Shown here: positions 37,141 to 60,218 of the stretch, one piece after another
Numbering within the stretch: position 1 is the first letter of the stretch
Layout: every line of letters starts with the position of its first letter
NCBI GenBank assembly: GCA_043814965.1
Contig: JBDRJN010000015.1
Location: 1,503-65,502, forward strand
Origin: Candidatus Omnitrophota bacterium
GTDB taxonomy: Bacteria; Omnitrophota; Gorgyraeia; Gorgyraeales; Gorgyraeaceae
DNA length: 64,000 nucleotides
Direction: 5' to 3'
Position numbers and translations under genes: made by a program
Notes under the pieces: model-generated
Seen by the model: only the letters and a program-made list of their open reading frames with translations
Told to the model about the DNA's origin: nothing
Databases searched by the model: none

Positions 37141-40100
37141 ATGAGAAACTTTGTAAAGATATCAGGTATTTCAATAATATTTGCTATGGTCATTGCCTTT
37201 GCTATCCCTCAGGTTTTAGGGGAAGGGCCTAGTAAGTGGCCAGTAGAGTTATCCAAAAAGGAGTTCTATAAAGAAGATTATATTACTTTACTCGGCATGT
37301 TTAGTAAGACGATAGAAATAACAAAGACTTATTATGACCCAGGGCCTATCAAGATGGGCGATGTCAGCGGTGATGGTGTAAGTGATATAAGCTTTATAGC
37401 TACTAATAGTACCACTGGATATAACAGTGTATATCTACTCAATAAAGATGGTGTTATTTATGATGGATGGCCTAAAGAACTTGATTGTAATTCTGGAGTT
37501 GCACCAGCGCTTGTAGATCTAGACGAAGATGGTAATATGGAGATTATAGTCAATACAACCTCTGATGGCATAAAGATCTATACGTGGGAATTTGATGGAA
37601 GCCTGGTCAAGAACTTTCCAATAAAAATACCTGGGACTGAAGGTTCTAGCAGTATTGATGAAAAAGGCAGATACTATTTAACCACCACTAGTTATAGTAT
37701 ACCTGCGATAGGAGATGTAGATGGGGATGGCATAGAAGATCTAGTTGTTACAGGGACTACTATAAAGGATTATGGAAATCAGCTAAAAAATGAGACTATA
37801 AATAAGATCTGGGCAGTCAGCCTGGGAAGCGGTCAGATGACATTAAGTGGCTGGCCTGTAACCCTGGAAAAAGGCGAAAACTTACCCTATTGGAATTCTC
37901 CAGCTATAGCTGATATAGATAATGATGGCACAATGGAAGTAATTATAGGTATAAATAGGCCTTGTGGTGATAAGTTAGATAAAGATACATACCGCGTATA
38001 TGTATTTAACTGCGATGGAAAGCCTTTTAATGAGAATTGGCCGAAGGATCTAAAGCTTGATAACATTACTTTAGAAAAGACATTAGGCATTACCTCGGAC
38101 TTTTATAGAAGTAAGGATAGTAAGTTTGGTTTTATGACTTCCCCGGTTGTTGCAGATGTAAACGGGGACAATAAGGAAGAGATAGTTATAGCTGGTTCTT
38201 ATCTAAATTATTTTATAGCGCCTAATGAATTAGGATTGGGCTCAGAATATGACACACCTTTTATAGAAGCTAATTCAATATTGTATGTCATGGACAAAGA
38301 TGCTTTTATACTGGAGGGATGGCCCAGGATAATAGGGACCAGCCTGATACATCAGGCATTCAAATACATTGACCCGTCTATAAGTATAGGTGATGTAGAT
38401 TACGATAGCATTCCTGATATATCTTTACCAGGGTACGATGGCAATATCCATATATTGAATTATATGGCAGATGAGATTCTCAAGATAGAAAGCCTTGATT
38501 TTTATAAAAAATATTTTTATACATTAATAGGCGATATAAATAATGACTTTAAAGTCGATATAGTAGCCCCTGCATTAGAAAATATAATATGCGCTTTTGA
38601 TACAGATGGAAAATACCTTAATGATTTTACGCCTAAAAGGATGGAGGGAGATACTGATTTTGTAAACCCATTGATCGTAGCATGCCCTGCCATAGACAAT
38701 ATAGAGATGAGGGATTATCTCAGTATAATCTCTCCTTCATCTAAAAATAAAAACGTATCTAACTATCCTGCAGGCATAATAAATAAATGGGATGCTGGCG
38801 ATACTGGTTTGATCGGAGATATCAAAGAGACATCTATTATAGATTGGCCCCAGTTTGCATATGACGCCAAGAACACCAACTGGCACTTGTCTAATGAAAA
38901 GACCAACCGCTCCGGGGATGATAAAGATGATAAATTGCAGAAAAAAAATACTATCAGCGGTTATGTGGCGTCTTCTATCCAAGATGACTATGGCAGAAGA
39001 CTGTTTTATTTTGAAGGAGTAAAAGTCCGGGCAATAGTCTGGGATCCTATATTAAAAGTATATGGCCCTATACATTCTGAGGTTTTTACTGGGCCTGATG
39101 GTACATATGAGTTTCCAGAAGAGGACATGGTTCCTGGAACTATTTATTCGATCGTAGCTAATCCTTTGGAAAAGGCGCCTTATCCAAAATTGGAGTATAA
39201 AGAAAAATACGTAGGCGATGTAGTAGAATTTGCGTTTGGCCCGATATATAAACACTCTGATTGTTTTGGCCAGGCCTTTGATAGAGAAACAGGCAAGGCA
39301 CTAGAAGGCGTGACTGTAAAACTAAGGGCAGACTCTGATTTTAAGATCTATTCCGGGGTTTCTAATAATAATGGGTGGTTCTTGATCCAGGGCTTACCTT
39401 ATCTTTCTTTTTATGATGTTTTTGCTTCAAAGAAAGGATATAAAGAAGAACAGAGGGGGCCGATAGATATCAAACAGGATCCTTTTTACAGGATAACAAA
39501 TCCTGACCTTTCTCTTGTCCCTATTCCAAAAGGCAGTATCTCAGGTAAAGTAATGGATGGAGCTATCGGAGTAGAGGGTATGGTTGTTGAAGCTATTGAT
39601 AAAGACGGGGATATATATTCAGATACTACTGATGCATCAGGCGAGTATGAGATAAAAGATCTATTGGAGAATTATAACTATACCGTTACCGTGGGTGAAA
39701 AAGAAGGTTATAAGGGCTCTATCCCTACAAAACATGAAGTAACTGTAGTAGGTAATATCTTAAATATTGATTTTACTCTTCAAAAGACAAGTTATAGCAT
39801 CTCCGGAGTGATATACAATGAAGATGGTTCAAAAAGATTACATCCTAGCACAGTTAAATTAGAAGGTACTTCTGCTAGCGTACTGACCATGGAAGATCCT
39901 GACAAACCAGGAGAGTTTGGATACTATGAAGTCGCAGGCCTGGAAGAAGACGGATATTATATCCTTACTGTTAGTAGTGATGGTTATATACCTGTAAGCC
40001 GAGGCTTTATTGATCTAAGAGAAGATACAAAGTTTGATTTTCATCTTAAAAAGCCCCCTGAAAGATATAATATTACTGTAAATGTGCGGGATGAAAATAA

Positions 40101-40806
40101 TAAACTAGTGCCTCGAGCGCATGTAGGTATAGTGGGGTTTGGTTATGATATAGATGTTGGATATGATGGCATATTGGAGTGGGAAGGATTATTTGGAGGG
40201 GAAAAGACTTTTTGGGCTTCAAAGGATGGGAAATACGGCGAGACCAAGGCTGTGATCGAGGAGAATGGAGTAGTTGTAGATATAGTATTAAAGGAAAATA
40301 GATACTCTCTTTCAGGCATTGTAACTGAAAGAGGCGCTAATATTCCTTTAAAAGATGTAATAATAAAAATAAAACTACCAAATGGCATTGAAAAAGCTGC
40401 AAGGTCAAATTCCAATGGTTATTACCTTATTAAGGACATGCCTAATGGTAAATATATGGCATCGTGTACCAAAGAAAGAGAAGGAGGTATATGGTATCAT
40501 GGGTATAGATTGGAAGTTGTTATTTCAGGGAAGAATAAGACACTGGATCTAACGCTTGCTAAGGGAGAATATCTATATACTGTTACTGGTAGAGTAGTTG
40601 ATGAAGATGGCGACCCTGTAAAAGGCGCTACTGTAAGGCCAGATGGGCTTGGACAGAGGCTTACTACAGATAGATCAGGCGAATATTCATTATTATTGCC
40701 TGCTAAGACATATTTATTTATAGCTGAGCTGAATGGTAAAAGAGGAGAGAGGTCTATCACTGTAAAAGAAGAAAATACCAGAGTGGAAGACATTATTATC
40801 AGATAG
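37141..40806 (+). CDS. Giant surface protein (1221 aa): signal peptide, FG-GAP/VCBS-type beta-propeller repeats, C-terminal carboxypeptidase-regulatory-like (CarboxypepD_reg) repeats
   Basis: N-term MRNFVKISGISIIFAMVIAFAIPQVLG; repeats GDVSGDGVSDISF, VDLDEDGNMEII, GDVDGDGIEDLVV, ADIDNDGTMEVII, ADVNGDNKEEIVIAG; C-term units DGTYEFPE, SGEYEIKDL..YNYTVTV, SGEYSLLLPAKTYLFIA. Confidence 0.7.
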   Translation: MRNFVKISGISIIFAMVIAFAIPQVLGEGPSKWPVELSKKEFYKEDYITLLGMFSKTIEITKTYYDPGPIKMGDVSGDGVSDISFIATNSTTGYNSVYLLNKDGVIYDGWPKELDCNSGVAPALVDLDEDGNMEIIVNTTSDGIKIYTWEFDGSLVKNFPIKIPGTEGSSSIDEKGRYYLTTTSYSIPAIGDVDGDGIEDLVVTGTTIKDYGNQLKNETINKIWAVSLGSGQMTLSGWPVTLEKGENLPYWNSPAIADIDNDGTMEVIIGINRPCGDKLDKDTYRVYVFNCDGKPFNENWPKDLKLDNITLEKTLGITSDFYRSKDSKFGFMTSPVVADVNGDNKEEIVIAGSYLNYFIAPNELGLGSEYDTPFIEANSILYVMDKDAFILEGWPRIIGTSLIHQAFKYIDPSISIGDVDYDSIPDISLPGYDGNIHILNYMADEILKIESLDFYKKYFYTLIGDINNDFKVDIVAPALENIICAFDTDGKYLNDFTPKRMEGDTDFVNPLIVACPAIDNIEMRDYLSIISPSSKNKNVSNYPAGIINKWDAGDTGLIGDIKETSIIDWPQFAYDAKNTNWHLSNEKTNRSGDDKDDKLQKKNTISGYVASSIQDDYGRRLFYFEGVKVRAIVWDPILKVYGPIHSEVFTGPDGTYEFPEEDMVPGTIYSIVANPLEKAPYPKLEYKEKYVGDVVEFAFGPIYKHSDCFGQAFDRETGKALEGVTVKLRADSDFKIYSGVSNNNGWFLIQGLPYLSFYDVFASKKGYKEEQRGPIDIKQDPFYRITNPDLSLVPIPKGSISGKVMDGAIGVEGMVVEAIDKDGDIYSDTTDASGEYEIKDLLENYNYTVTVGEKEGYKGSIPTKHEVTVVGNILNIDFTLQKTSYSISGVIYNEDGSKRLHPSTVKLEGTSASVLTMEDPDKPGEFGYYEVAGLEEDGYYILTVSSDGYIPVSRGFIDLREDTKFDFHLKKPPERYNITVNVRDENNKLVPRAHVGIVGFGYDIDVGYDGILEWEGLFGGEKTFWASKDGKYGETKAVIEENGVVVDIVLKENRYSLSGIVTERGANIPLKDVIIKIKLPNGIEKAARSNSNGYYLIKDMPNGKYMASCTKEREGGIWYHGYRLEVVISGKNKTLDLTLAKGEYLYTVTGRVVDEDGDPVKGATVRPDGLGQRLTTDRSGEYSLLLPAKTYLFIAELNGKRGERSITVKEENTRVEDIIIR

Positions 40807-40830: not shown

Positions 40831-40870
40831 TAGCCTTGTAGGGGAGCCTTAAGGCTCCCCTACAAGGCTA
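40831..40870. repeat. Extended REP hairpin tagccttGTAGGGGAGCCTTAAGGCTCCCCTACaaggcta (18-bp stem)
   Basis: Perfect inverted repeat seen directly; immediately after giant gene stop. Confidence 0.8.
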
Positions 40871-41076
40871 CACAGGTTCCCCTACATATTTAGGAGATAA
40901 TAATTAGATTATTATAGTATCAACTAGTTGCAGTTATTAGAGTTACAAAAACTATATAAACTATGCAAAAAAAGTATTTTCTATCCTTGAATTTTTAGAA
41001 ATATGTGGCATACTTGAAATAGAGAAATAGGAGGCAGAAACACTGAGACTTTGAAAACTTAATGTTTAACCAGTCA

Positions 41077-41217
41077 AAGGGCAAACCCAGAGTAATCTGG
41101 GGGCGCAAAGCTACGGGTCCTTGGTTATAAGGATGGCCGAGTTACCAAGGATAGCCGAGCTAGTTGATTGATGTGAAGGAGGAAGGATCAAATATCTCGG
41201 CTTTTTTGTTGCTTAAA
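41077..41217 (+). ncRNA. sRNA-like unit 1 (conserved 5' block aagggcaaacccagagtaatctggggGcgcaaagctacgggtcc, ends in intrinsic terminator)
   Basis: Block duplicated at 41337-41379; 3' gccgag...ctcggc + T6. Confidence 0.45.
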
Positions 41218-41336
41218 AAGGAGGCAGCGAAATAATAAGAGGAGGCAGGGTAAGACGCTTTAAGGAGGCACACTTTTTAGTTAATCCTTAAGACAATTGA
41301 ATATTAGGTATTATTTATAATAATACTTTCAGTAAA

Positions 41337-41504
41337 AAGGCAAACCCAGAGTAATCTGGGGACGCAAAGCTACGGGTCCTAAATCAGGAAGTAGCTGACA
41401 CTTAAGTGTCAGCTGCAGTTGATTAGGGCAGCCGGGTCGCCAAGAAAGTTAATTTATTTTTAGGATAGCCGAGCTTACGTTTAATACAAAGCTCGGCTTT
41501 TTTA
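41337..41504 (+). ncRNA. sRNA-like unit 2 (same 5' block, internal perfect hairpin agctgacacTTAAgtgtcagct, ends in terminator agccgagctt...aagctcggct + T6)
   Basis: Tandem paralog of unit 1. Confidence 0.45.
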
Positions 41505-41749: not shown

Positions 41750-44700
41750 ATGAAAACGATCATTAAAAACTCAAAAATTTTCACGATCTTTATTGTAACT
41801 GCCATGGCATTTTTGATCATGTCTTCGCATGCTTTTTCGTATGACCCGAATGATCTATTCTGGTATGGGAATGATATGCATCCCCAGCAGAATAAAGACA
41901 ATCTCAATCTCTATCCAGATGATTATACGCCAGAAGGCGAGCCTTGGCGCGAGATTAGTTATGAATACGGCTATTATGACGAAAATCGTGAACGCGACGA
42001 ATATGGTAGGATCGAGGTTGATCAATACGGATTCGGGTATGGCCATGACAATCTACCAGATGATGAACCATGCTATTATCTATGGCCTTTACGAGAAACA
42101 GAAAGACGCGGCCTTAATTGTCCAAAAGCCTGGGACCTTTGGGTCAGAGGCAAAGGTATTGTAACTGCAGTGATTGATTCAGGAGCGTATATAGATCACC
42201 CTGACTTGGTCCAAGCTGATGGGAGATCAGCTATTCTTGAGTACAGGCCAGGTGAGTTTGCAGTAAAGAATTTTATAACCGGCACTACAGATGTAACTGA
42301 CAATCTTGGGCAGGGTACTGCTATAGCAGGGATAATAGCTGCTGGTATGAATAACTGGGGTGCTCAGACTGGTTGTATCGGAGTTGCACCTGAGAGTAAG
42401 CTCATGATATTAAAAGTAATAGATCACCCTACGCTAAACAATGACTTGAATAATACCAAATCACTGGAAGATTTAGTAGAAGAAGCTATTTATTATGCTG
42501 CTGGTAGGAGAGATGATGGATCAGGAGTTCCTCCGGAACATATTGCAGATATTATTAATATCGGAGTCAGAGTTAATCCTACAGTCGGCATTAAAGAGGC
42601 ATTAAAATATGCAAATAGCCTGGGATGTATTATAGTCGCTCCTGCAGGTGGAGATCTAGCAGCTTTAGATGGTGTTATTGGTGTAGGCGCAACCTACCAT
42701 GATGGAACTCATCTTGGAGAGGATAAAAAGACCGGGACCAAAATCCAAGGAGCTAGTGTCTATGCGCCAGGCATAGAAATAGTCTCTTTATGCCCCCCGA
42801 GGGGATCAGGGGAACCAGGAAAACCAACCTTTGATGAACTTGTAAAAGCTTTGCCAAATAGAAGGCAGATCTTTGAATTCCAAAGATATGATTATGGCCA
42901 TTATTTTCACCTTATGCCTTATATTCAAAAAGAAGATGGCCATGCGCTTGCAGCAGCTCACATATCAGGCGTCATAGCGCTAATACAAGAATATAAAGAA
43001 ACGATAGATAAGGGGGATCTATGGGGCGTTGTAAAAAAATACACACCTGAAGAGATAGAGACCCTCTTAAAATTTGCAGCAGTAGAGAAGGGTATCCCTG
43101 ATATTAGAAAGGCTTTAGACCTGGTAGGTTCTAGGGCTGTGATACCGATAGCCAAGATCGTATTGGATAACAAAGGATCGTTTAGAGGGACTATAGATAT
43201 TAAAGGTATATTAAAAGGAAATCCAGGCAGTACTTATGTACTTGAATATGTGAATAATGACCCCTCAAAAGGTGTACAGGGTGTTATAACGGACGGATCC
43301 CTGGCTTCAGAGGAAATAAAGGAGCTTTACCTTGGCAAGCTGGATACTGCAAAATTAGAAGACGGCAGCTATACCTTGAGGTTATATCTACATACAAGTA
43401 TCATGGCCTTAAAAGACGAGGTGGTTATAAATATCAACAATTCTTGTTTGGAAGGTTGGCCTATAGTATTAAAGGGCGCAGAAGGAAATTATATCGGGCT
43501 ATCTGCGCTAGGTTTAGGGTCTCCCACCATAGCTGATCTGAATAATGACAGTAAGAAAGAGGTTATACTAATAGGTAATATAAACGAAAGAGGGATTATT
43601 GATATCAGGGATTATAAAGGCGAGAGGTTTAATTGTATGCCTGAATCAAAGGATGAATACGCATGGAAAGAATACGGGCCCATCACAGCAAGTGACGGAA
43701 GCTCGGATGACAATTTTGGTATATCAGTTTTTATGGATGCTCAATTTGCTGTAGTCGGAGCTCCTAAAGATGGCAGAGGATTGTATTCGGGCTCAGCGTA
43801 TATATTAAGGAATAACTATAGTAGCGGTTGGGCAGAGGAAAAAAAGCTTATTCCAATCGATGGAGCCGGAGGGGACAGGTTTGGCATATCTGTAGCTGGC
43901 GCAAGACTTGTTACAACTGAAAGAGTTATTATAGGAGCCGGTAATTCCGGAGGAAAGGGCGCTGCGTATATATTCAGGAATGATAGTAAAACATGGCCGC
44001 AGGAACGGAAACTTATAGCTCCTAATGGTAGGCCCGGAGACATGTTCGGTAAGTCAGTAGCTATGGACATTACCAATTTTGAATTTAGCATGCTGGGAGA
44101 ACATAATAGATTGAGAGCAGTTGTAGGCGCGCCATGGAGCGAAGGCCGTTCACTGCAAACTGGCTCAGTATATATCTTTGTACGTGATGATTTTATATGG
44201 AACCCTGCACCAGAACAGATATTAACTGCAGAAGATGGAGAGGAGAGGGATGAATTCGGAGAAGCAGTCTCTATGTATGAAGATGTTATCTTGGTAGGCG
44301 CTCCATCTAAGTCAAATGGAAAAGGGGCCGCGTATATATATAGGTATAGTTTAGAGACGCGTAAATGGGAGTATGAACAAAAATTAACAATAACTAATGG
44401 AGAAGACGGAGATAAATTTGGCTGTTCAGTTGCGCTGGAAAAAGATTATGCTGTAATAGGCGCATGGGGCCGTAATAATGATAAGGGAGCTGTATATGTA
44501 TATAAATATGATGCTAATATGAAAACTTGGGGACAGGAACCAGAACAGGTGTTGGAATTAGAAGGCCTTAGTTCCCAGGCTAGATTTGGTAATTCAGTCT
44601 CAATCACTAGAGATCCTAGTGATGAGAATAGAACAAGCGATAGGATAGTGGTAGGGTCTAATTCTATGGAAGGCAAATCTAATTCTGTATATGTTCATAA

Positions 44701-52300: not shown

Positions 52301-52789
52301 GGGGCCTATTCAGTGAAACTGCCAGCAGGTGATTATATATTCAATGTCTCAGCTCCTAAGAATCTTAAACCTGAGCGCGCGCCTATAGAAAAGACAGTAA
52401 CCTCACCCGGCAATGGTAGTCTTACGCTGGATCTAAAGCTTAAAGAAGTTGAACCTGAAGTGCTCTATGATTCTCAAGGTAGAAGGTTATATACTACCAA
52501 TGGCGATGTTTATTATTACTACTATGACAGTAAAGGAAGAAAAATTCGTAAAAAGCATAGTTACTTTACTGTTAAATTCATAAACCAAACTACAAAAGAA
52601 GTATATAAAGCGGATATTAAAAGCAGTAATTACTATTCTATATTAGCACCAGAAGGCAAATATGATATAAAAATAAACGATCATTGGCAACGAAGTAAAG
52701 ATAAAAAAGCATGGCCATCTGTAATAACCGTAAACAAGGATAGAAAAGGTAGGATGGACTGGTATCTAGAGGTGCCGAAAACAGAATAA
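49370..52789 (+). CDS. Giant surface protein (1139 aa from ATG after AGGAGGG SD): signal peptide, VCBS/FG-GAP-type propeller, CarboxypepD_reg-like repeats
   Basis: MYTLTRNKRMILGAGVFLLLLSAVPAMA; KDVDLDGREEIAFTG, HDINNDNISEVIVTG, ADIDLDERPDLVITG, ADMDGDKYPEIIIG; C-term DGSYKFEGLETTDYTVVA, DGSYSLSVELANGDYYITA etc. Confidence 0.7.
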   Translation: MYTLTRNKRMILGAGVFLLLLSAVPAMAVEGEWERKLEETQVIDGGGGGFIGLGRGIPQTIITSTIDINPIIVKDVDLDGREEIAFTGTPSNSGLGNNPSVNLYLLDSNGDNYIPPDAPYGTVSKWPIEKKGGGIVPALHDINNDNISEVIVTGVDNQGIRIYAYTPEGNILSKYPKLIPGTAYCTTYGTSVVADIDLDERPDLVITGSSARGGNKVYAVNFETGNSLEGWEGGRPLPIGEELASNISPVIADMDGDKYPEIIIGTFTHGGKGTNTPKLHILSHDGKLTTITEGLELSKKLKTDLNIKDGDRFFEKSANSFGFMTSPAVMDVNGKKFIAAVATYIKPIDKNEREIGSILYILDEKGYCYPGELVNFDTYFYPTPYAYPSVTIGEVTKEKRPYIVITCNGKISMFYDFGGKIGDDIPAHPIGGGHFAAVLGSDNKIATLTFNGYVACYDAVTGLMENNFPKKMAVDTPRSNGLPYLALLRNMDSRSDVIIAPSYGNSSTPSGVVYAFKTSASGGLLGFGSGMKEDNRQWPMINLNPVNTRYESAGSSGMDIMLTPPPPVKEPIDISGKVKANTPYYKGHEFHLEGIIVRAAGYYDDSIKHETTTAADGSYKFEGLETTDYTVVANPEGKYGYKSESRAPVGNDNNVNFSLSPKEGFFVLYGQVVDAKSREGIDGVTVDTTVKGGSYSAVTADEGYYLISEIPRGEDTYAVNASKDGYVGKTQSMPGQIMQDFNSMEFKILEDKTYTYTITGITYDSNNNTLSGVTIGLEGKSVTATTQTDGSYSLSVELANGDYYITAKKNYYVNTTGKQHIVIADDSYTTITAVNFNFASETVKVSGYVKEKDSNTPLKNALITATITLNGRTDTKQTYSSFQAKTLGYYEFSSIPKGANIRVVAGLDGYNASDPLNVGVVENKKLQDIFLEKGKYIVSGKVCKEENNEGIASAAITIYVVKDNKRSKFDSLRSGSGGAYSVKLPAGDYIFNVSAPKNLKPERAPIEKTVTSPGNGSLTLDLKLKEVEPEVLYDSQGRRLYTTNGDVYYYYYDSKGRKIRKKHSYFTVKFINQTTKEVYKADIKSSNYYSILAPEGKYDIKINDHWQRSKDKKAWPSVITVNKDRKGRMDWYLEVPKTE

Positions 52790-52795
52790 GTGTAG

Positions 52796-52917
52796 TAGTA
52801 GGGGAGCCTTAAGGCTCCCCTACAATGTGGATAACTAGAATATAGGGGGACGCGTTACAAAAACATACACTTTGGCGTCTGATCCGCGTCAAGGTGGCCT
52901 CCTTCAAATAACGCGCC
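52796..52917 (+). repeat. 120-nt composite repeat copy 2 (REP hairpin + long-range hairpin); followed by C6T6 tract (terminator-like)
   Basis: Sequence identity with 49146-49265; ends ...taacgcgccccccttttttat. Confidence 0.7.
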
Positions 52918-52954
52918 CCCCTTTTTTATCAATATTGAATTAATGCGTTTTAAG

Positions 52955-52983: not shown

Positions 52984-53009
52984 TTTTAAAAATAAGGTAG
53001 GTATTGTAT

Positions 53010-54723: not shown

Positions 54724-55926
54724 TTGAATAAAGAAATCACTAAGACAATAGTCATACCTCGCCATTTAGCATTCATAAGGTTTCTGGATATCCCTTCAGT
54801 GGATGATTCTGAGATAAAAGATGTATTAAGGTTCCAGGCCATAAAAGAACTGCCTTATCCCAAAGAGGACATAGTCATCGGTTATAAAAAACTAGGGTCC
54901 TATAAACAGGGAAGTATTTCTATCATGCTTGTGGTGGCTACCAAGGAGATACTGGAAGATGCTATAGAAAATGAAGCTCGGCTGGGAGCTGGCCAGGATT
55001 GCATAGTAAGGCTGTATACAGAGTTATTGTATGAGTTTTTATTAAAACAGAATGTCATAAAAGAGGACAAAGTAAATCTTGTTATCAATATAGGAGAGAA
55101 GTCTTCTGAGATAATTGTGATGGATAAAAAGCGCCTTATCGTCTCGAGGGGGTTTTCAGACAATAAGAGGCTGCTCGAGGAGATAAAGCATTCATTATTA
55201 GCATACAAAAGGGATAGATTGAACCCGCCTATAGAAAATATAATCATAAGGCGTTTTTTATCCAGAGACACGGAAGATATCAAACTCTACATCGAAGAAG
55301 AGTTCCAGGGTGTACCATTAGAGAGTTATGAATTTAAAAAAGACCTCGAGGCATTAGATTTTTCATTGGATATCAATCTTGCTCCAGAAGAGATAAGACA
55401 GAACCTGGAAAAGACCAAAAAAAAGAAAGAATCTATCATAATATATGGGCTTATCTTTGCTATAATAGCGCTGGTCTTTTCTTTGCTGAATTACAAGCTT
55501 TACGAAAAGAGAAAATTCATAGATATCCTTTCTGATAGATTGACGAAGCTTCAGACAAAGACGCATAATCTCAGCAAGCTCTCCAAAAAAACAGATTTTT
55601 TAAGCAAGCAGGAATTGGAAGGCCTTGTGATGGTGGATATCCTGGGTTACTCTGATAGGGCAGTGCCTTCCAGCATATTTTTATCAGGATTGGAATATGC
55701 GGGGAACAACGAAGTCTCTTACAGGGGGTTTGCGAAGGATACATCTTCTGTGCTTGACCTTGTCAGGATACTGGAGGATTCAGAATATTTCAACAAGGCT
55801 GAAGTCAAGTATGCCACCAAAAAAAGATATAGGGGCAAGGAGATAGTTGATTTCGACATACAGTGCCATATAGACATGGATAATGTCTCAAAGAAATACA
55901 ATATAGATATAATAAAGGAAAGATGA
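54724..55926 (+). CDS. GspL-like / PilM-PilN fusion (cytoplasmic actin-like domain, one TM, periplasmic coiled-coil)
   Basis: 400 aa; N-terminal PilM-like region; TM IIIYGLIFAIIALVFSLLNY around residue 240; TTG start. Confidence 0.6.
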   Translation: MNKEITKTIVIPRHLAFIRFLDIPSVDDSEIKDVLRFQAIKELPYPKEDIVIGYKKLGSYKQGSISIMLVVATKEILEDAIENEARLGAGQDCIVRLYTELLYEFLLKQNVIKEDKVNLVINIGEKSSEIIVMDKKRLIVSRGFSDNKRLLEEIKHSLLAYKRDRLNPPIENIIIRRFLSRDTEDIKLYIEEEFQGVPLESYEFKKDLEALDFSLDINLAPEEIRQNLEKTKKKKESIIIYGLIFAIIALVFSLLNYKLYEKRKFIDILSDRLTKLQTKTHNLSKLSKKTDFLSKQELEGLVMVDILGYSDRAVPSSIFLSGLEYAGNNEVSYRGFAKDTSSVLDLVRILEDSEYFNKAEVKYATKKRYRGKEIVDFDIQCHIDMDNVSKKYNIDIIKER

Positions 55927-56435
55927 TAAAGCTAAATATCTCAAAAAGAGAAAAAAACATACTGATCGTCACGATCGCGGTCGTATCCATGGTCCTGATA
56001 TACAATCTTGTGTTGGATGGTGTCTTTAAGAGTTGGGTAGGGTATAATAAAAAGATATCAGATGACATAAAAGACCTTGAAAAGAATATAGAGTTATTGA
56101 AAAACAGGAACCTTGTCATCAGGCACTACAATTCATATGTCTCCAATATCAATACCATGCCCAAGATACTCTCTATAATAGAACAAAATGCATCATCGTT
56201 GGGCATTACCACATCCAATATAAGGCCCAGGCCTGTCATAGATCATGGTATATGCAAGGAATATATAGTAGAGCTTCATATTGAGGGAGGGCTTGGCAGT
56301 ATAACCAAGCTTATGTCCCAGCTTATAGAGCATCCTGTCATCATAAGCATAAAGAAGTTTGAATTGAGAAGGACCGAGCAAGAGAGCTCTATTTTTAAAG
56401 GTATATTTGTCATGTCCAAAGCAGTCCTCCAGTAG
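55923..56435 (+). CDS. GspM/PilO-like bitopic inner-membrane protein
   Basis: 170 aa; N-terminal TM ILIVTIAVVSMVLIYNLVL then periplasmic domain; overlaps upstream stop (translational coupling). Confidence 0.5.
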   Translation: MIKLNISKREKNILIVTIAVVSMVLIYNLVLDGVFKSWVGYNKKISDDIKDLEKNIELLKNRNLVIRHYNSYVSNINTMPKILSIIEQNASSLGITTSNIRPRPVIDHGICKEYIVELHIEGGLGSITKLMSQLIEHPVIISIKKFELRRTEQESSIFKGIFVMSKAVLQ

Positions 56436-56557: not shown

Positions 56558-56809
56558 ATGGAGAGCAATAGAATTATGGAAAATAATATTTATTTAATAA
56601 AGGACCTGGCTAGATTAAGCGGGCAGACTATTCATACTATAAAATATTATCTTAATATAGGCCTTATAAAGGAAATAGGCAGAAGCCCTGAGACCAATTT
56701 CAGGTATTTTAACAAAAAGAACCTTGAAGAACTTCTCAGGATAAGGACACTGCGGCGGGAGCATAAGTCTCTCGCTGAGATAAGAGAGATACTAGAAGGG
56801 AGAATGTAG
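56558..56809 (+). CDS. Small MerR-family HTH protein (83 aa, HTH only)
   Basis: YLIKDLARLSGQTIHTIKYYLNIGLI matches MerR N-terminal HTH; stop abuts exeA-like start. Confidence 0.55.
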   Translation: MESNRIMENNIYLIKDLARLSGQTIHTIKYYLNIGLIKEIGRSPETNFRYFNKKNLEELLRIRTLRREHKSLAEIREILEGRM

Positions 56810-57637
56810 TTGTCATACTACGAGATACTCAGCCTCAAGAAAGAACCTTTTTCTACAAGCCCTGACCCTTATTTTATGTATCCATCTTTGTCCCACCAGC
56901 AAGTGATCAAAAGACTAGAGACAGTTATCAGGCTCAAAAGGGGTTTAAGCCTGGTCCTGGGAGATGTAGGAGTAGGTAAGACTACGCTAGGGAGATCGCT
57001 TTTGCAGATACTTAGCAAAGAAGATTCTTTTATGCCTCACATGATACTTGACCCTGTATATGACTCTGAGTTCCAATTTGTCGTGTATCTTGCTAAGTTA
57101 TTTGGCATCAAGTCTTCTTTTAGGTCCACGCTTGATTACAAAGAGGCTATAGAAAGGTTTTTGTTTAAAAAATGCGTTGATGAAAAAAGCACCGTCATCT
57201 TAGTAATAGACGAAGCGCAAAAACTATATCCCTCCACACTCGAGATACTTCGTACATTGCTGAACTTTGAGACCAATGAATACAAACTTATACAACTTGT
57301 TATCATAGGCCAGATGGAACTTTTGCCGAAACTAAAAAGAATAAAGAACTTTTCCGACAGGGTAAGCCTGAAATATATACTTAATCCATTTGATATAAAC
57401 GAGACAAAAGACATGATAAGGTTCCGCTTGAAACAGGCAGGTTATAATTCAGGAAAAAGCTTCTTTACAGAAGAAGCCATGAATATGATATACGAATACA
57501 CGCAGGGCTATCCCAGGAAGATCGCAAACCTGTGCCATAGCGCGCTAGAGGAATTAGTCATGAAAGAGTCGCGGTCAGTCGATGAAAACCTGATACAAGA
57601 ATTGATAGAAAGGGATAAGGTAGTGGCATTGGCCTAG
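56810..57637 (+). CDS. ExeA/GspA-like AAA ATPase (AAA_22), cytoplasmic form lacking TM/peptidoglycan-binding domain
   Basis: N-term SYYEILSLKKEPFSTSPDPYFMYPSLSHQQ (ExeA signature F-L-x-PF-x-PDP-FLY), Walker A GDVGVGKTT, Walker B VILVIDEAQ; TTG start. Confidence 0.75.
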   Translation: MSYYEILSLKKEPFSTSPDPYFMYPSLSHQQVIKRLETVIRLKRGLSLVLGDVGVGKTTLGRSLLQILSKEDSFMPHMILDPVYDSEFQFVVYLAKLFGIKSSFRSTLDYKEAIERFLFKKCVDEKSTVILVIDEAQKLYPSTLEILRTLLNFETNEYKLIQLVIIGQMELLPKLKRIKNFSDRVSLKYILNPFDINETKDMIRFRLKQAGYNSGKSFFTEEAMNMIYEYTQGYPRKIANLCHSALEELVMKESRSVDENLIQELIERDKVVALA

Positions 57638-57638: not shown

Positions 57639-58136
57639 ATGAGAAACATTACACCCGAAGGAAAATTACTGAACCTTATAAAACAAGCTCAACATAAGCC
57701 CAGGCTTAAAAAGGATCTAAAGATCTTTACTAAGCTTACGATAGCCTTGAGCGGGGTCATAGTCGTTATAGTCATCCTGCTGATAGTAGATATGACTAGG
57801 TTCGAATATGAGCTTCCCAGCGTAGATATAAATTTTGATGAAAACTATGAGACCATAGATATATTAAAACCCAGCGATGTTGATTTTAAGATAGATGTAG
57901 AAAAGACCAATGTCAAGAATATATCGGATATCAAAAACAATATACAAAGCAGTATAAAACTAGTCGGTATCATCACCGGAGAGGAATCCCAGGCTATCGT
58001 AGAAGACCTCCAGACGAAGGAGACGCTTTTTCTTGGAGTGGGTGATAGCATAAAAGATTGTAAGGTCTCTAATATATTCAAGGACAGCGTAGTCTTGGAT
58101 TATAATGGAGAAAAGATAACCATAGCTATTCAATAA
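57639..58136 (+). CDS. GspC/PilP/ExeB-like bitopic periplasmic protein (secretin-interacting HR-domain-like)
   Basis: 165 aa; TM LTIALSGVIVVIVILLIV; C-terminal beta-rich LVGIITGEESQAIVED...LFLGVGDSI...VVLDYNGEKITI. Confidence 0.45.
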   Translation: MRNITPEGKLLNLIKQAQHKPRLKKDLKIFTKLTIALSGVIVVIVILLIVDMTRFEYELPSVDINFDENYETIDILKPSDVDFKIDVEKTNVKNISDIKNNIQSSIKLVGIITGEESQAIVEDLQTKETLFLGVGDSIKDCKVSNIFKDSVVLDYNGEKITIAIQ

Positions 58137-58151: not shown

Positions 58152-60218
58152 ATGAAGATATCAAAAAGCAGCGTCTTTATAATAATAGGATTTTTGATAA
58201 TGAACTCTCTTTTTTCTTTGGACATCACATATGCCAAGGACTATTCCCCCGAACTTATATCTTTAGATATAAAAGGCATGGATATAAGAGATGTGCTGAA
58301 GCTATTATCACAGAAGAGCGGTTTGAATATCATAGCAGACAGAGAAGTCAGAGGAGACGTGCAGCTATATGTAAATGACCTGGATATCATGCAGGTATTG
58401 GATATACTGGTCTCTACCAATGGCCTTGCGTATGAGCAGCAGGGCACCCTCATAAGAGTGATGACAGACAAGAAATATGATACGCTTCACGGTAAATCAT
58501 TCGACGATACTACTGTCACTGAAATAATAAAACTAAACCATATCAATGCCCAGGATGTATCCAACACCATAAACGAGATAAAGACCAGTATCGGCAAGAT
58601 CATACCTGACGAGAGGTCCAACACCGTAGTCTTGATAGACAATCCGTCTACGGTCGACAGGATGAAGCAGATCATAATGGAGATGGATGTAGCCTTGACG
58701 ACAGAGGTGTTTGATCTTAATTTTGCAAATGCCAGTGACGTAAAAGGCAAAATAGAGAACATCGTCTCCAAGGATATAGGAGAAGTGAGTATAGACGAGA
58801 GGACCAATAAACTAGTAGTAAAAGATACACCTAAGAAGATAGAAGAGATAAAGAATATCATAAAGGTATTCGACGATAAGACACTGGAGGTCTCCATAGA
58901 GACGCATATCATACAGGTGAGCCTTGCAGATAAATACAGCCATGGTATCAATTGGTATGATATTGCTAGGCTTGGAGACTTTAAATTTACAATAGATACT
59001 AACCTTTCTACGGGGCTGACAAATGTGACGCCTTCTGATTTTAGCGTGGCTAGCAGCGGTAATTTCACAGCGATAATGGGCTTACTGGATACATTTGGGA
59101 AGACCAATGTCCTTTCCAAGCCCAGGATCACTGTTGCTAATAAGCAAGAGGCTAAGATCCTGGTGGGATCCAAAGAAGCCTATGTTACTAGCGAAGTGAC
59201 TACGACCGAAGGAGGGACTTATCACACAACAGATAATGTTCAGTTTGTTGATGTTGGAGTGAGTTTATCAGTAACGCCTGAGATAAACAGGGCAGGATAT
59301 ATTACGCTAAAGGTCAGGCCAGAGGTCTCGAGCTCTGATTCTACCAAGACCGTAGAGCTCAAAAATCCTGATGGCTCTACGCGTACGATTGTCCCCTATG
59401 TGACTACTGCTGAGACCGAGACAACAGTTGTTATAAAAGACGGCACTACTCTTATATTAGGCGGATTGATGAAAGATACTGTCATAGACAATAAACAAAA
59501 AGTACCTATCCTGGGAGATATACCTTTATTGGGAGGGTTATTCAGGTCATCCGGAAAAAGTAAAGAGAAGACAGAGCTGGTCATATTTATCACGCCTCAT
59601 ATCATCGGAGGAGACGAGACTACTGGAGAAGTAAAGAATGGACTTAAGGATTTTAATAGGCAAGAGGAAAAAAATAAAGTGGATAGGGAATTACCTATCA
59701 TAGGCGGGGTGAGCGAAAGAAGTGATGCGCGGGAAAGCAGGACACCGATATGGCGTACTGCCAAAAGAAAACCTGACGCGAAACCAGTGACTAAAAAAGA
59801 TGCTTCTCGGGCGCCTAAAGCAGCTGCTGAGAGAAAAGATAAAGCAAGTGAATGGGCTCCTCTTCTTGGCGCGGAAAAACCAAAAGAAGTTCCAATGCCT
59901 ACAATGGCTAAAGAGGAGAAAAAAGGATCTCCGCCTCAAAGATCTACCAACGAAGATTATGATCTACTGGTAGATCAGGAGATAAAGAGAGTTGTCAAAG
60001 ACCAGGGCAATATAGGGGCCAAGGGTATTGTAGAACTCCAGTTTACACTGGACAGGGAAGGTTTTTTGATAAAAGGCCCTATCGTACTTAATAAACCTGA
60101 GCTCACGCTTGTAAGAAACAGTGTAAACGCTGTTAAAGCTGCTTCTCCATTCCCTCCATTCTATGAAGGCATGAGCGAGGATGAAAGAGAGTTTTATGTA
60201 AAGGTAGTGTACGAATAG
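58152..60218 (+). CDS. Secretin (GspD/PilQ family) with N0/STN-like and N1 domains and an unusual C-terminal Pro/Lys/Ala-rich linker + TonB_C-like domain
   Basis: 688 aa; signal peptide; N0 ISLDIKGMDIRDVLKLLSQKSGLNII; secretin core ...VPILGDIPLLGGLFRS...TELVIFITPHII; tail KRKPDAKPVTKKDASRAPKAAAERKDK then AKGIVELQFTLDREGFLIKGPIVLNKPELTLVRNSVNAVKAASPFPPF. Confidence 0.8.
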   Translation: MKISKSSVFIIIGFLIMNSLFSLDITYAKDYSPELISLDIKGMDIRDVLKLLSQKSGLNIIADREVRGDVQLYVNDLDIMQVLDILVSTNGLAYEQQGTLIRVMTDKKYDTLHGKSFDDTTVTEIIKLNHINAQDVSNTINEIKTSIGKIIPDERSNTVVLIDNPSTVDRMKQIIMEMDVALTTEVFDLNFANASDVKGKIENIVSKDIGEVSIDERTNKLVVKDTPKKIEEIKNIIKVFDDKTLEVSIETHIIQVSLADKYSHGINWYDIARLGDFKFTIDTNLSTGLTNVTPSDFSVASSGNFTAIMGLLDTFGKTNVLSKPRITVANKQEAKILVGSKEAYVTSEVTTTEGGTYHTTDNVQFVDVGVSLSVTPEINRAGYITLKVRPEVSSSDSTKTVELKNPDGSTRTIVPYVTTAETETTVVIKDGTTLILGGLMKDTVIDNKQKVPILGDIPLLGGLFRSSGKSKEKTELVIFITPHIIGGDETTGEVKNGLKDFNRQEEKNKVDRELPIIGGVSERSDARESRTPIWRTAKRKPDAKPVTKKDASRAPKAAAERKDKASEWAPLLGAEKPKEVPMPTMAKEEKKGSPPQRSTNEDYDLLVDQEIKRVVKDQGNIGAKGIVELQFTLDREGFLIKGPIVLNKPELTLVRNSVNAVKAASPFPPFYEGMSEDEREFYVKVVYE

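What the first reader, a model, noticed from the sequence alone, without database searches (positions are those of the whole stretch)
37141..60218. Co-localised module: three giant propeller/CarboxypepD_reg surface proteins next to a pilin-less T2SS / type-IV-pilus-like core
Three paralogous signal-peptide proteins (1221, 2464, 1148 aa) with integrin-like FG-GAP/VCBS propellers and many transthyretin-like CarboxypepD_reg repeats lie directly upstream of gspE/pilB, a GspL-like PilM-N fusion, a GspM/PilO-like protein, a MerR-like HTH, an ExeA-like ATPase, a GspC/PilP/ExeB-like protein and a secretin. Each giant gene ends in the same REP hairpin, and two of them share a 120-nt downstream module. 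No pseudopilins, platform protein (GspF/PilC) or prepilin peptidase are present in the window. The arrangement suggests a dedicated secretion or surface-display apparatus for very large adhesin-like substrates. Cell-cell attachment, epibiosis or predation is one possible role, but that is inference.
Basis: partly seen in the sequence, partly recalled or inferred. Interest (0 to 1): 0.85.

Follow-up and report, generated by a model that had tools for sequence, protein, structure and literature searches.

The report
Omnitrophota type II secretion operon, pseudopilins excised
This is the standard protein-secretion (type II) gene cluster of an Omnitrophota bacterium that has cleanly lost its platform and pseudopilin genes from the operon and gained three genes for very large exported proteins in front of it, one controlled by a tandem c-di-GMP riboswitch. 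It is an interesting variant of a known system, not a new kind of machine.

Summary
The ORFs, domains, REP hairpins and shared ~130-nt module are real. No platform gene, pilin or prepilin motif exists anywhere in the 64 kb.

Comparison with about 170 related loci (all named ones Omnitrophota) changes the reading.
- The gsp genes are the phylum-conserved T2SS operon, at a position kept in the window's close relatives: fabF | gspE-F-G-I-J-K-L-M-merR-AAA22-gspC-gspD | acdh-etfBA.
- The window and its sister L001 lack exactly gspF to gspK; gspE stops one base before gspL starts.
- At least three other lineages lost these genes independently.
- Between window and L001, synonymous sites are saturated, yet all seven remaining genes are intact. 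The system is therefore still under selection, and F and the pseudopilins are probably supplied in trans. I could not show this.

The three large genes are a lineage-specific insertion at a slot where large exported proteins recur (10 of 85 loci).

New findings:
- Two tandem c-di-GMP-I riboswitches, each with its own terminator, precede the 2464-aa gene. L001 has one.
- GspE carries the MshEN c-di-GMP-binding motif.
- The S8 domain is catalytically dead.
- The secretin ends in a TonB_C-like domain.

Verdict: a new variant of a known kind, of moderate interest.

The parts
36821..36915 (.). Two copies of the 26-nt REP-like palindrome (36821-36846 and 36890-36915), between the fabF stop codon and giantA.
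37141..40806 (+). giantA, 1221 aa. It has a signal peptide, an FG-GAP beta-propeller region (about aa 70-600) and CarboxypepD_reg / SdrD_B / SpaA-type beta-sandwich repeats running to the C-terminus. No anchor is present.
40838..40863 (.). REP-like palindrome after giantA. The extended 44-nt perfect hairpin spans 40829-40872.
41071..41207 (+). c-di-GMP-I riboswitch 1: aptamer at 41071-41150, then an intrinsic terminator at 41153-41207 (AGCCGAG...CTCGGCT followed by a T run).
   Evidence: 63.2 bits, gathering score 59, E=1.4e-12.
41330..41504 (+). c-di-GMP-I riboswitch 2: aptamer at 41330-41445 with a REP-like palindrome inserted in the P3 apical loop (41391-41416), then an intrinsic terminator at 41462-41504. 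It is orthologous to the single riboswitch of L001.
   Evidence: 59.4 bits.
41750..49144 (+). giantB, 2464 aa. It has a signal peptide, a catalytically dead subtilase (S8) domain at aa 134-444 (His64 to Gln, Asn155 to Gly, Ser221 to Ala), FG-GAP_2 and FG-GAP_3 propeller repeats (about aa 640-1420) and CarboxypepD_reg repeats (about aa 1800-2350).
49148..49275 (+). Shared module, copy 1: REP palindrome (49148-49173) plus an ~80-nt long hairpin (49194-49272). It is followed by the best sigma-70-like site of the region (TTGAAA-16-TATAAT, 49274-49301) in front of giantC.
49343..52789 (+). giantC, 1148 aa, a paralog of giantA. It has a signal peptide, an FG-GAP propeller and 5 CarboxypepD_reg repeats.
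52798..52926 (+). Shared module, copy 2 (REP palindrome plus long hairpin), in the leader of gspE.
53004..54722 (+). gspE, the T2SS ATPase, with an N-terminal MshEN c-di-GMP-binding domain. The tandem 24-5-24 motif reads RLGDKLVEKGLITDDQLKLALTEQ-KKTGD-FLGSILVGLGTIREEDLYLSLSEQ (aa 11-63 counted from the ATG at 53010).
   Evidence: (NF053729, 63.5 bits against a cut-off of 38).
54724..55926 (+). gspL-type gene: a weakly PilM-like cytoplasmic domain, a transmembrane segment and a PilN-like periplasmic domain. It starts 1 nt after the gspE stop codon. This is the junction left by loss of gspF-G-I-J-K.
55923..56435 (+). gspM-type gene (PilO domain, N-terminal transmembrane segment).
56558..56809 (+). 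An 83-aa protein that is only a MerR-family HTH. It is kept at this operon position across the phylum. A sigma-70-like site lies at 56493-56521.
56810..57637 (+). AAA_22 ATPase of 275 aa, soluble, of the GspA / ExeA / MshM type.
   Evidence: (TIGR03015, 183 bits, below its cut-off).
57639..58136 (+). GspC-like (HR-domain-like) bitopic protein of 165 aa.
   Evidence: T2SSC, 25.7 bits against 27; GspC, E=6e-5.
58152..60218 (+). gspD secretin. It has a signal peptide, N0, two Secretin_N domains and the secretin domain (aa 312-485), followed by a Lys/Pro-rich linker and a C-terminal TonB_C-like domain (about aa 600-688).

Best explanation
The region 53004-60218 is the Omnitrophota version of a type II secretion system operon. 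It encodes GspE, GspL, GspM, a small MerR-like protein, a GspA/MshM-like AAA ATPase, a GspC-like protein and a GspD secretin with a TonB_C-like tail.

In the common ancestor of this genome and its sister L001, the block gspF-gspG-gspI-gspJ-gspK was removed precisely from between gspE and gspL. The remaining genes stayed under purifying selection, so the machine is still in use. The inner-membrane platform and the pseudopilins are most likely encoded elsewhere in the genome, as in split T2SS arrangements, or are shared with a second T2SS or pilus locus. This step is inferred.

The three large genes at 37141-52789 are a lineage-specific insertion into the fabF-gspE intergenic 'slot'. In other Omnitrophota this slot repeatedly holds unrelated large exported proteins. 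They encode Sec-exported, unanchored beta-propeller / beta-sandwich proteins, one with a dead subtilase domain. They are most likely periplasmic intermediates expelled through the secretin to act as extracellular binding or adhesive proteins. This is also inferred.

c-di-GMP probably acts at two levels:
- Two tandem c-di-GMP-I riboswitches, each with its own terminator, gate transcription of the 2464-aa gene. The terminator 5' arms mimic the aptamer P3 3' strand, which fits an OFF switch: ligand binding leads to termination. This is a tentative inference.
- The MshEN domain of GspE is predicted to bind c-di-GMP.
For: Taxon and synteny:
- 80 GspE-anchored genome loci were recovered, and every one whose record names a phylum is Omnitrophota (some TPA records are labelled Planctomycetia or only 'uncultured bacterium').
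- The order gspE-F-G-I-J-K-L-M-merR-AAA22-gspC-gspD is seen in about 50 loci; fabF upstream and acdh-etfBA downstream are seen in the window's close relatives.
- GspG of L012 passes the NCBIfam GspG equivalog cut-off (152.8 against 88.9). GspK and GspJ are also recognised.

Precise deletion:
- In the window, gspE ends at 54722 and gspL starts at 54724.
- In L012, gspK ends at 15072 and gspL starts at 15074.
- The sister locus L001 has the same junction. L012, which retains the block, is the outgroup.

Selection (window against L001):
- pS is 0.67-0.97, which is saturated, while pN is 0.17-0.41.
- All seven genes are intact. dN/dS is about 0.1 where it can be computed.
- Other loci lacking the block (L047, L014) are as conserved as their relatives that keep it.

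Block mobility or loss elsewhere:
- Independent losses occur in L047, L026 and L014.
- L148 has E-F-L-M with no pseudopilins.
- L113, L116 and L136 have the order E-L-M-F-G..K; the fragment L114 shows L-M-F-G..K.

Cargo slot:
- A same-strand ORF of 900 aa or more ends within 700 nt of gspE in 10 of 85 loci, against 0.4% of background ORFs.
- These proteins have varied exported-protein domains: S8, FG-GAP, PKD, Kelch, CBM, GH2 and dockerin.
- The window's large proteins have signal peptides and no anchors.

c-di-GMP:
- Two Rfam hits lie above the gathering score, each followed by a hairpin and a T run.
- An orthologous riboswitch precedes an S8 / FG-GAP_2 / CarboxypepD_reg gene directly upstream of gspE in L001.
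- The c-di-GMP_motif model is passed by the window GspE (63.5 against 38) and by 7 of 7 other Omnitrophota GspEs tested.
- The motif definition comes from PMC5013675.
Against: - No gspF, pseudopilin or prepilin peptidase gene was found for this genome. The genome is not in any searchable collection.
- No stand-alone gspF-K block was seen among the GspF-anchored contexts examined. Supply in trans is therefore unproven.
- Nothing links the three large proteins to secretion through this secretin except adjacency. A 2464-aa protein would, to my knowledge, be larger than any established T2SS substrate.
- Homologs of the large proteins adjoin gsp genes in only 4 related loci.
- If the riboswitches are OFF switches while c-di-GMP activates GspE, as it does MshE, cargo and motor would be regulated in opposite directions.
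- Aptamer 1 has a poor P1 in the Rfam alignment, with two non-canonical pairs.
- The background rate of large ORFs is underestimated, because truncated ORFs were excluded.
Confidence: 0.6

Rival explanations
1. The large genes and the T2SS operon are functionally unrelated neighbours. The fabF-gspE intergenic region would simply be a permissive site where REP-flanked genes accumulate, and the proteins would be exported or used independently of this secretin.
For: - In most close relatives fabF abuts gspE, with gaps of 33-277 nt in 11 loci.
- Homologs of the large proteins adjoin gsp genes in only 4 loci.
- The REP palindromes occur only around the three large genes, which suggests a separately evolving segment.
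- Each large gene has its own leader and likely its own transcription signals.
Against: - Different, non-homologous large exported proteins recur in exactly this position, on the same strand, in about 8 independent lineages across the phylum. This is far above background.
- T2SS substrates are often encoded beside their gsp operons. This is established knowledge, for example pulA beside the pul operon.
- The riboswitch-controlled S8 / FG-GAP_2 gene has stayed directly upstream of gspE since the window-L001 split.
Confidence: 0.25
2. The operon is a decaying remnant. After gspF and the pseudopilins were lost, the T2SS became non-functional and the remaining genes are on their way to pseudogenisation.
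For: - The essential components GspF and GspG-K are absent from 64 kb.
- Piecemeal patterns elsewhere look like erosion: L014 keeps only gspK and L148 keeps gspF but no pseudopilins.
- T2SS proteins are somewhat more diverged between window and L001 than between L090 and L047 at similar acdh identity.
Against: - The deletion predates the window-L001 split.
- Since that split synonymous sites have saturated, yet all seven ORFs are intact in both genomes. pN is 0.17-0.41 and dN/dS is about 0.1.
- The excision is exact at gene boundaries and keeps the 1-nt gspK/gspL-type spacing.
- The GspE MshEN motif is retained and the ATPase domain matches the T2SSE model over its full length.
Confidence: 0.08
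3. The cluster is an MSHA-like or other type IV pilus assembly system rather than a T2SS. Its parts would be a MshE-like ATPase, a MshI-like PilM-N fusion, MshJ/PilO, MshM-like AAA, MshK-like protein and MshL secretin, with its pilins encoded elsewhere.
For: - The gene set in the window, read alone, matches the MSHA biogenesis set one for one. This rests on my own knowledge of the mshHIJKLMNEGF operon.
- GspE scores marginally higher on PilB than on GspE (612 against 607 bits), and both are below their cut-offs.
- The secretin also matches MshL (203 bits) and PilQ (239 bits).
Against: - Orthologous operons in about 50 relatives carry a GspG that passes the T2SS major-pseudopilin equivalog cut-off, plus GspJ- and GspK-type minor pseudopilins and a GspC-like gene.
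- No MshN / TPR gene or MSHA pilin genes are present.
- The best secretin match is GspD (249 bits).
Confidence: 0.05
4. The E-L-M-A-C-D core works without its own platform and pseudopilus. It would either use pilins and a platform from a type IV or Tad pilus system of the same cell, or act as a pseudopilus-independent gated secretin for very large cargo.
For: - At least four independent lineages keep an intact, conserved core after losing F-K or G-K from the operon.
- No stand-alone F-K block turned up in the contexts examined.
- Omnitrophota are reported to carry additional Tad / T2SS-like loci (bioRxiv 10.1101/2023.11.21.568195).
Against: - In every studied T2SS, GspE acts through GspF and GspL on a pseudopilus. 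This is established knowledge.
- The search for stand-alone blocks was shallow. Few close relatives and few long contigs were available, and no genome of a locus lacking the block could be inspected.
Confidence: 0.1

Closest known systems
Canonical Gsp type II secretion system (for example Klebsiella Pul, Vibrio Eps)
   Same: - It has a GspE ATPase, a GspL/M-type assembly platform, a GspC-like protein and a GspD secretin.
- Orthologous Omnitrophota operons add GspF, GspG and minor pseudopilins in the classical E-F-G...K-L-M order.
- Cargo genes lie next to the operon.
   Different: - gspF and all pseudopilin genes are missing from this operon.
- gspC and gspD sit at the 3' end, after a MerR-like gene and a GspA/MshM-like AAA gene.
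- The secretin has a TonB_C-like C-terminal domain instead of a pilotin-binding S-domain.
- GspE has a c-di-GMP-binding MshEN domain.
- NCBIfam equivalog cut-offs for GspE and GspD are not reached.
Split T2SS gene arrangements such as Legionella pneumophila lsp (lspDE, lspFGHIJK, lspLM, lspC and pilD at separate loci). This comparison rests on my own knowledge and was not checked here.
   Same: The F-G-H-I-J-K genes behave as one movable block, separate from the E, L-M and D genes. This is the arrangement inferred for this genome. Rearranged orders such as E-L-M-F-G..K occur in other Omnitrophota.
   Different: For the window genome the relocated block has not been observed. Only its absence from the operon and from 64 kb is shown.
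MSHA type IV pilus biogenesis genes of Vibrio cholerae (MshE, MshI, MshJ, MshK, MshL, MshM)
   Same: - The same set of component types is present as in the window.
- MshE is the founding MshEN c-di-GMP receptor, and a Pseudomonas T2SS ATPase binds c-di-GMP in the same way (PMC5013675).
   Different: - Orthologous operons encode T2SS-type pseudopilins (GspG equivalog), not MSHA pilins.
- No MshN, MshG or MshF is present.
c-di-GMP-I (GEMM-I) riboswitches, including tandem doublets, and Vc1 upstream of gbpA in V. cholerae
   Same: - The aptamers score above the Rfam gathering threshold.
- Tandem c-di-GMP-I doublets with separate expression platforms are common: 347 doublets are reported in PMC9481103.
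- Vc1 controls gbpA, an extracellular adhesin gene (PMC4744006). GbpA is a T2SS substrate by my own knowledge.
   Different: - This instance is in Omnitrophota, upstream of a 2464-aa pseudo-subtilase / propeller protein.
- The best-scoring Rfam model is the GGC variant. However, both aptamers carry A at the position where that model has G (CGCAAAG against the model's CGCGAAG). By my reading of Vc2 numbering (G20 / A47 / C92, own knowledge) they are canonical c-di-GMP binders.
- A REP-like palindrome is inserted in one P3 loop.
Giant-gene loci of Omnitrophota next to T2SS/Tad-like secretion genes (West-Roberts et al. 2023, bioRxiv 10.1101/2023.11.21.568195; also bioRxiv 10.64898/2026.06.07.730766)
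   Same: The phylum is the same. So is the theme of very large adhesion or degradation proteins encoded beside gspD/E/F-like secretion genes, interpreted as tools for attachment to prey.
   Different: - Those giants are tens of thousands of residues long, with many transmembrane regions and SecA-like domains. Their neighbouring system includes rcpC (Tad-like) and gspF.
- Here the proteins are 1.1-2.5 kaa, soluble and signal-peptide-bearing. The neighbour is the fabF-linked true T2SS operon lacking gspF.

Membership tests
Type II secretion system (Gsp) | Outer-membrane secretin GspD | tested here: met
   Pfam Secretin 169 bits (cut-off 27.5) and Secretin_N 85.9 bits. The best NCBIfam match is GspD at 249 bits, below the equivalog cut-off of 351.
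Type II secretion system (Gsp) | Cytoplasmic hexameric ATPase GspE | tested here: met
   Pfam T2SSE 454.9 bits. NCBIfam GspE 606.6 bits against a cut-off of 630, and PilB 612 against 675. Family membership is clear; subfamily is not resolved from sequence alone.
Type II secretion system (Gsp) | Inner-membrane platform protein GspF | tested here: not met
   tblastn with GspF from L002 finds no hit in the 64-kb window better than E=5. gspF is present directly after gspE in about 50 orthologous operons.
Type II secretion system (Gsp) | Major pseudopilin GspG and minor pseudopilins with a prepilin leader | tested here: not met
   No GspG, I, J or K hit and no six-frame prepilin motif in the window. 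Orthologous operons have a GspG that passes the equivalog cut-off, 152.8 against 88.9.
Type II secretion system (Gsp) | GspL/GspM assembly-platform pair | tested here: inconclusive
   PilN (33.7 against 22.8) and PilO (27.9 against 22) pass the Pfam cut-offs. The PilM-like N-terminal domain is seen only weakly. The genes occupy the gspL-gspM position after gspK in relatives. No GspL- or GspM-specific model matched.
Type II secretion system (Gsp) | GspC linking the platform to the secretin | tested here: inconclusive
   Pfam T2SSC 25.7 bits against a cut-off of 27. NCBIfam GspC E=6e-5, 22.7 bits against 101.6.
Type II secretion system (Gsp) | Prepilin peptidase (GspO/PilD) in the genome | not testable with these tools
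   No Pfam match to a prepilin peptidase among the window ORFs scanned. None lies in the operon in the relatives inspected. The rest of the genome is unavailable.
c-di-GMP-I riboswitch (GEMM-I clan CL00126) | Covariance-model score at or above the gathering threshold | tested here: met
   63.2 and 59.4 bits against a gathering score of 59 on RF03167. Overlapping lower-scoring clan members were suppressed.
c-di-GMP-I riboswitch (GEMM-I clan CL00126) | Ligand-contacting nucleotides G20 / A47 / C92 (Vc2 numbering, own knowledge) | tested here: met
   By inspection of the alignments, both aptamers read ..G-GCAAACC....CGC-A-AAG.. and ..AC/GC before P1. The model's variant G at the A47 position is mismatched by A in both.
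c-di-GMP-I riboswitch (GEMM-I clan CL00126) | Expression platform coupled to the aptamer | tested here: met
   Each aptamer is followed by a strong hairpin and a T run. The terminator 5' arm (GAUAGCCGAGCU) can replace the P3 3' strand. The ON or OFF direction is only inferred.
c-di-GMP-I riboswitch (GEMM-I clan CL00126) | Binding of c-di-GMP | not testable with these tools
   This needs in-line probing or ITC.
MshEN c-di-GMP receptor domain | 53-residue tandem motif, 2 x RLGxx(L/V/I)(L/V/I)xxG(L/V/I)(L/V/I)xxxxLxxxLxxQ with a 5-residue spacer | tested here: met
   NCBIfam NF053729 63.5 bits against a cut-off of 38, at residues 11-63. The motif written out matches the published pattern except F for R at the start of motif 2.
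MSHA-type type IV pilus | MSHA pilin genes and MshG/MshN, and a secretin of MshL type | tested here: not met
   No pilins are present. MshL scores 203 bits against a cut-off of 250 and below GspD. Orthologous operons carry T2SS pseudopilins.
Active subtilase (Peptidase S8) | Catalytic Asp-His-Ser triad plus the oxyanion Asn | tested here: not met
   Aligned to subtilisin BPN' (sequence recalled from memory): D32 is kept, H64 is Q, N155 is G and S221 is A. The L001 ortholog is also dead, while the L002 protein is intact. The fold-level Pfam match is real, at 62 bits.
REP elements / RAYT | Short palindromic repeats in intergenic DNA associated with a Y1 (IS200-like) transposase | tested here: inconclusive
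   Five intergenic copies against 0 expected. A Y1_Tnp ORF lies at 23415-23903, but it is not flanked by this palindrome. The palindrome is absent from the 86 related loci held at that point, and blastn of the REP-containing module found no copy in them either.

The most novel reading that the evidence does not exclude
A conserved T2SS core (GspE-L-M, GspA-like, GspC, GspD-TonB_C) has repeatedly shed its own platform and pseudopilin genes in Omnitrophota. It would function by borrowing those parts from another type IV filament system of the cell, or without a pseudopilus. This would form a c-di-GMP-gated export route specialised for very large propeller-type binding proteins used in cell-cell attachment.
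Probability: 0.12. Interest if true: 0.7.

Novelty: new variant of a known kind. Interest (0 to 1): 0.4.

Why it matters
Omnitrophota are uncultured, often ultra-small bacteria suspected of host-dependent or predatory lifestyles. What they secrete, and how that is controlled, is central to testing this idea.

The locus offers four concrete, testable points:
- A natural series of T2SS operons, with and without the gspF-K block, can be used to ask whether T2SS parts may be supplied in trans or shared between systems.
- It is a candidate case of c-di-GMP controlling both a secretion ATPase (through MshEN) and a putative cargo gene (through a tandem riboswitch) in a phylum where second-messenger signalling is unexplored.
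- A recurrent 'cargo slot' upstream of gspE could be mined to predict the Omnitrophota secretome.
- The GspD secretin ends in a TonB_C-like domain in place of a recognisable S-domain.

None of this overturns current understanding.

Tried and rejected
- **Source genome.** Exact-sequence look-ups of the window's GspE (two start codons) and acyl-CoA dehydrogenase found nothing. The source genome is in no searchable collection, so the rest of the genome could not be checked for gspF, pilD or pilins.
- **Relocated gspF-K block, protein route.** A protein search with L012 GspF gave 3140 hits. The four nearest contexts I inspected were all canonical gspE-gspF arrangements.
- **Relocated gspF-K block, metagenome route.** A GspF-profile scan returned 80 loci. 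None showed a stand-alone F-K block. It did reveal rearranged orders (E-L-M-F-G..K) and E-F-L-M without pseudopilins.
- **The shared 130-nt module.** A permissive Rfam search of 36.7-60.6 kb found no family for it. blastn found it in none of the 86 loci held at that point.
- **REP palindrome.** It is absent from related loci, so it gives no comparative signal.
- **Promoter and terminator scan.** Counts are not above shuffled expectation: 71 against 64±8 and 16 against 12±3. Only two individual sites are mentioned, as weak hints.
- **Riboswitches next to other cargo genes.** None was found in 14 other loci. Riboswitch control is therefore specific to the window/L001 lineage.
- **Link between cargo insertion and F-K loss.** I considered and rejected a correlation, because L047 and L014 lack F-K but have fabF abutting gspE.
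- **Classification as the c-di-GMP-I-GGC variant.** I rejected this because of the A at the variant-defining position (alignment). The literature search did not return the variant's definition, so this rests on my reading of Vc2 numbering.
- **Structure prediction.** I did not use it. The proteins are too long or would have to be folded without alignments, and no open question hinged on a fold.

Full report
**1. Observation**

The region is exactly as described at the level of ORFs. Ten co-directional genes lie between fabF (35487-36734) and an acyl-CoA dehydrogenase / etfBA cluster (60524-63800).

Pfam supports most of the family assignments:
- T2SSE at 455 bits, together with MshEN.
- PilN, PilO, MerR_1 and AAA_22.
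- Secretin at 169 bits, with Secretin_N.
- FG-GAP families, CarboxypepD_reg and Peptidase_S8 in the three large proteins.
- T2SSC is just below its cut-off (25.7 against 27 bits).

Other checks:
- The three large proteins have plausible Sec signal peptides and no C-terminal anchor.
- Only the 1221-aa and 1148-aa proteins are real paralogs (27% over ~930 residues). The 2464-aa protein shares only domain types.
- The 26-nt palindrome occurs five times, against none in shuffles, and only around the three large genes.
- The ~130-nt module after giantB and giantC is 95% identical between its two copies.
- No GspF or pseudopilin homolog and no prepilin motif exists in any frame of the 64 kb.

**2. 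What the gsp genes are**

A scan of species-representative genomes with GspE returned 80 loci; every one whose record names a phylum is Omnitrophota (some TPA records are labelled Planctomycetia or only 'uncultured bacterium'), at 54-70% identity.

The shared gene order in about 50 of them is gspE-gspF-gspG-gspI-gspJ-gspK-[PilM/N fusion]-[PilO]-merR-AAA22-gspC-gspD. In the window's close relatives fabF lies upstream and acdh-etfBA downstream. This was confirmed with precomputed Pfam calls on two further genomes and in metagenome contigs.

GspG of the nearest block-containing relative, L012, passes NCBI's equivalog cut-off for the T2SS major pseudopilin. GspK and GspJ are also recognised. This is therefore a genuine T2SS, and the 'PilM-N fusion / PilO' pair sits in the GspL/GspM position.

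The MSHA pilus was my first lead, because the window's gene set alone matches it one for one. The pseudopilin content of the orthologous operons excludes it.

**3. The missing block**

In the window, gspE stops at 54722 and gspL starts at 54724. In L012, gspK stops at 15072 and gspL starts at 15074. The window has therefore lost exactly gspF through gspK.
- On a GspE tree, the window and L001 are sisters and share the deletion. L012, which keeps the block, is their outgroup.
- L047, L026 and L014 (which keeps only gspK) are separate events.
- Metagenome loci add E-F-L-M without pseudopilins (L148) and the order E-L-M-F-G..K (L113, L116 and L136, with the fragment L114 showing L-M-F-G..K).

Between window and L001, synonymous sites are saturated (pS 0.67-0.97). 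Non-synonymous differences remain at 0.17-0.41, and all seven genes are intact in both genomes. Other loci lacking the block are as conserved as their relatives that keep it.

The remaining genes have thus been under purifying selection long after the deletion, which argues strongly against a decaying remnant. Where GspF and the pseudopilins come from could not be established:
- The source genome is absent from every collection.
- No stand-alone F-K block appeared in the contexts I could inspect.

Relocation, as in split T2SS arrangements, or sharing with a second T2SS is the most economical inference, but it remains an inference. Some Omnitrophota MAGs do carry two gsp loci: L011 and L015 are from one MAG, and L010 and L016 from another.

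**4. The large genes**

In L012 and in ten other loci, most of them close relatives, fabF abuts gspE. The 15.9-kb segment with the three large genes is therefore an insertion.

Homologs next to gsp genes occur only in the following loci:
- L001: a 981-aa protein with S8, FG-GAP_2 and CarboxypepD_reg, directly upstream of gspE.
- L002 / L090 and L006: proteins of 1315 and 1314 aa with an intact S8 domain, FG-GAP and PKD.

Non-homologous large exported proteins nevertheless recur at the same position. They carry PKD / He_PIG, Kelch with CBM60 and CarboxypepD_reg, GH2 with CBM30, FG-GAP_3 / ASPIC, or S8 with beta-helix and dockerin.
- This holds for 10 of 85 assessable loci, against 0.4% of other complete ORFs.
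- One of the ten is an AcrB transporter and two are duplicates of each other.
- The background is an underestimate.

This pattern is what one expects of a cargo slot beside a secretion operon. It gives moderate support to the idea that the window's proteins are T2SS substrates. Nothing more direct is available.

The S8 domain of giantB is catalytically dead: His64 is Gln, Asn155 is Gly and Ser221 is Ala. The L001 ortholog is dead as well. The protein is therefore a binding or scaffold protein, not a protease.

The 943-nt gap before giantB holds two c-di-GMP-I-clan aptamers above Rfam's gathering score, at 41071-41150 and 41330-41445. Each is followed by its own strong terminator hairpin and T run.
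- L001 has one orthologous aptamer and terminator upstream of its S8 / FG-GAP_2 gene.
- Fourteen other loci have none.
- The best-scoring model is the 'GGC' variant. Both aptamers carry A where that model has its distinctive G, so I read them as canonical c-di-GMP sensors. This is an inference from the alignment and the known Vc2 contacts.

In all three riboswitches the terminator's 5' arm (GAUAGCCGAGCU) mimics the P3 3' strand and can pair with the P3 5' strand in transcription intermediates. That is the classical layout of an OFF switch. I hold this at about 60%. Tandem c-di-GMP-I doublets are common and give a sharper response (PMC9481103).

Separately, GspE carries the 53-residue MshEN c-di-GMP-binding motif, scoring 63.5 bits against a cut-off of 38. 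Seven of seven other Omnitrophota GspEs tested carry it too (motif from PMC5013675).

**6. Comparison and novelty**

The system works like, and descends from, a Gsp-type T2SS. As encoded in this window it fails two defining membership features, GspF and the pseudopilins.

Published work already links very large Omnitrophota proteins with T2SS/Tad-like loci. Those are different proteins and a different secretion locus.

The new elements are:
- the recurrent, precise loss of gspF-K from a still-constrained operon;
- the riboswitch-plus-MshEN double c-di-GMP input;
- the pseudo-subtilase cargo candidate;
- the TonB_C-tailed secretin.

I rate this a new variant of a known kind, with interest of about 0.4. 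The most novel reading that remains open is a T2SS core that borrows or dispenses with its pseudopilus. I give it about 12%.

Noticed in passing
window 58152-60218 (about aa 486-688 of the secretin): After the secretin domain, GspD continues with a Lys/Pro-rich linker and a TonB_C-like domain. Of 15 Omnitrophota GspD tails, 14 match Pfam TonB_C (best E=4e-9). A profile of them hits solved TonB C-terminal domains (5lw8, 6sly; E about 7e-6). The tail is missing in about a dozen complete GspD sequences (e.g. L028, L030, L046, L054, L066, L075, L125, L126, L137).
   Followed up: yes
window 42098-43129 (giantB aa 117-460); L001 1065-1940: The subtilase domain of the 2464-aa protein has lost the catalytic His, the oxyanion Asn and the catalytic Ser. 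Its L001 ortholog has lost them too. The related 1315-aa protein of L002 keeps all four catalytic residues.
   Followed up: yes
window 41391-41416: A REP-like palindrome (GTAGCTGACACTTAAGTGTCAGCTGC, 67% identical to the main REP) sits inside the apical loop of P3 of riboswitch aptamer 2. The orthologous aptamer in L001 lacks it.
   Followed up: partly
window 49194-49272 and 52845-52924: The core of the shared module folds into an ~80-nt hairpin (-36.8 and -35.2 kcal/mol). The substitutions between the two copies mostly keep pairing through G-U wobbles, which works only on the + strand RNA. It has no Rfam match and no copy in the related loci then held. It could be a leader RNA element or a MITE-like repeat.
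   Followed up: partly
window 56558-56809 and the same operon position in more than 40 related loci: An 83-aa protein consisting only of a MerR-type HTH is conserved (51-77% identity) between gspM and the AAA22 gene in Omnitrophota T2SS operons. To my knowledge this is not a component of described T2SS operons.
   Followed up: partly
window 23415-23903: An IS200 / Y1-transposase-like ORF, a possible RAYT, lies here. It is not flanked by the GTAGGGGAGCC palindrome found around the large genes. Different small hairpins lie upstream of it.
   Followed up: partly
window 18250-23220: This 1656-aa ORF has only one recognisable region, phosphoglucomutase/phosphomannomutase domains I and II at aa 291-593. 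The remaining ~1300 residues are unannotated.
   Followed up: no
window 1-64000: Every ORF judged to be a real gene is on the + strand, and GC skew is positive in every 2-kb bin. Gene orientation is strongly strand-biased across the whole window.
   Followed up: no
L001 452-715: Between the L001 riboswitch terminator and the S8 / FG-GAP_2 gene lies an 87-aa ORF with its own signal-peptide-like N-terminus, resembling that of the downstream protein. No equivalent ORF is present in the window.
   Followed up: no
L011 and L015 (MAG JAHIPS01); L010 and L016 (MAG JAHILY01); L005 and L077 (MAG JABMRG01): Some Omnitrophota MAGs carry two GspE-anchored loci on separate contigs; the JAHIPS01 pair (L011, L015) shows two full gspE-F-G-I-J-K-L-M loci. 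This shows that a second T2SS can coexist in one genome, although binning errors are not excluded.
   Followed up: no
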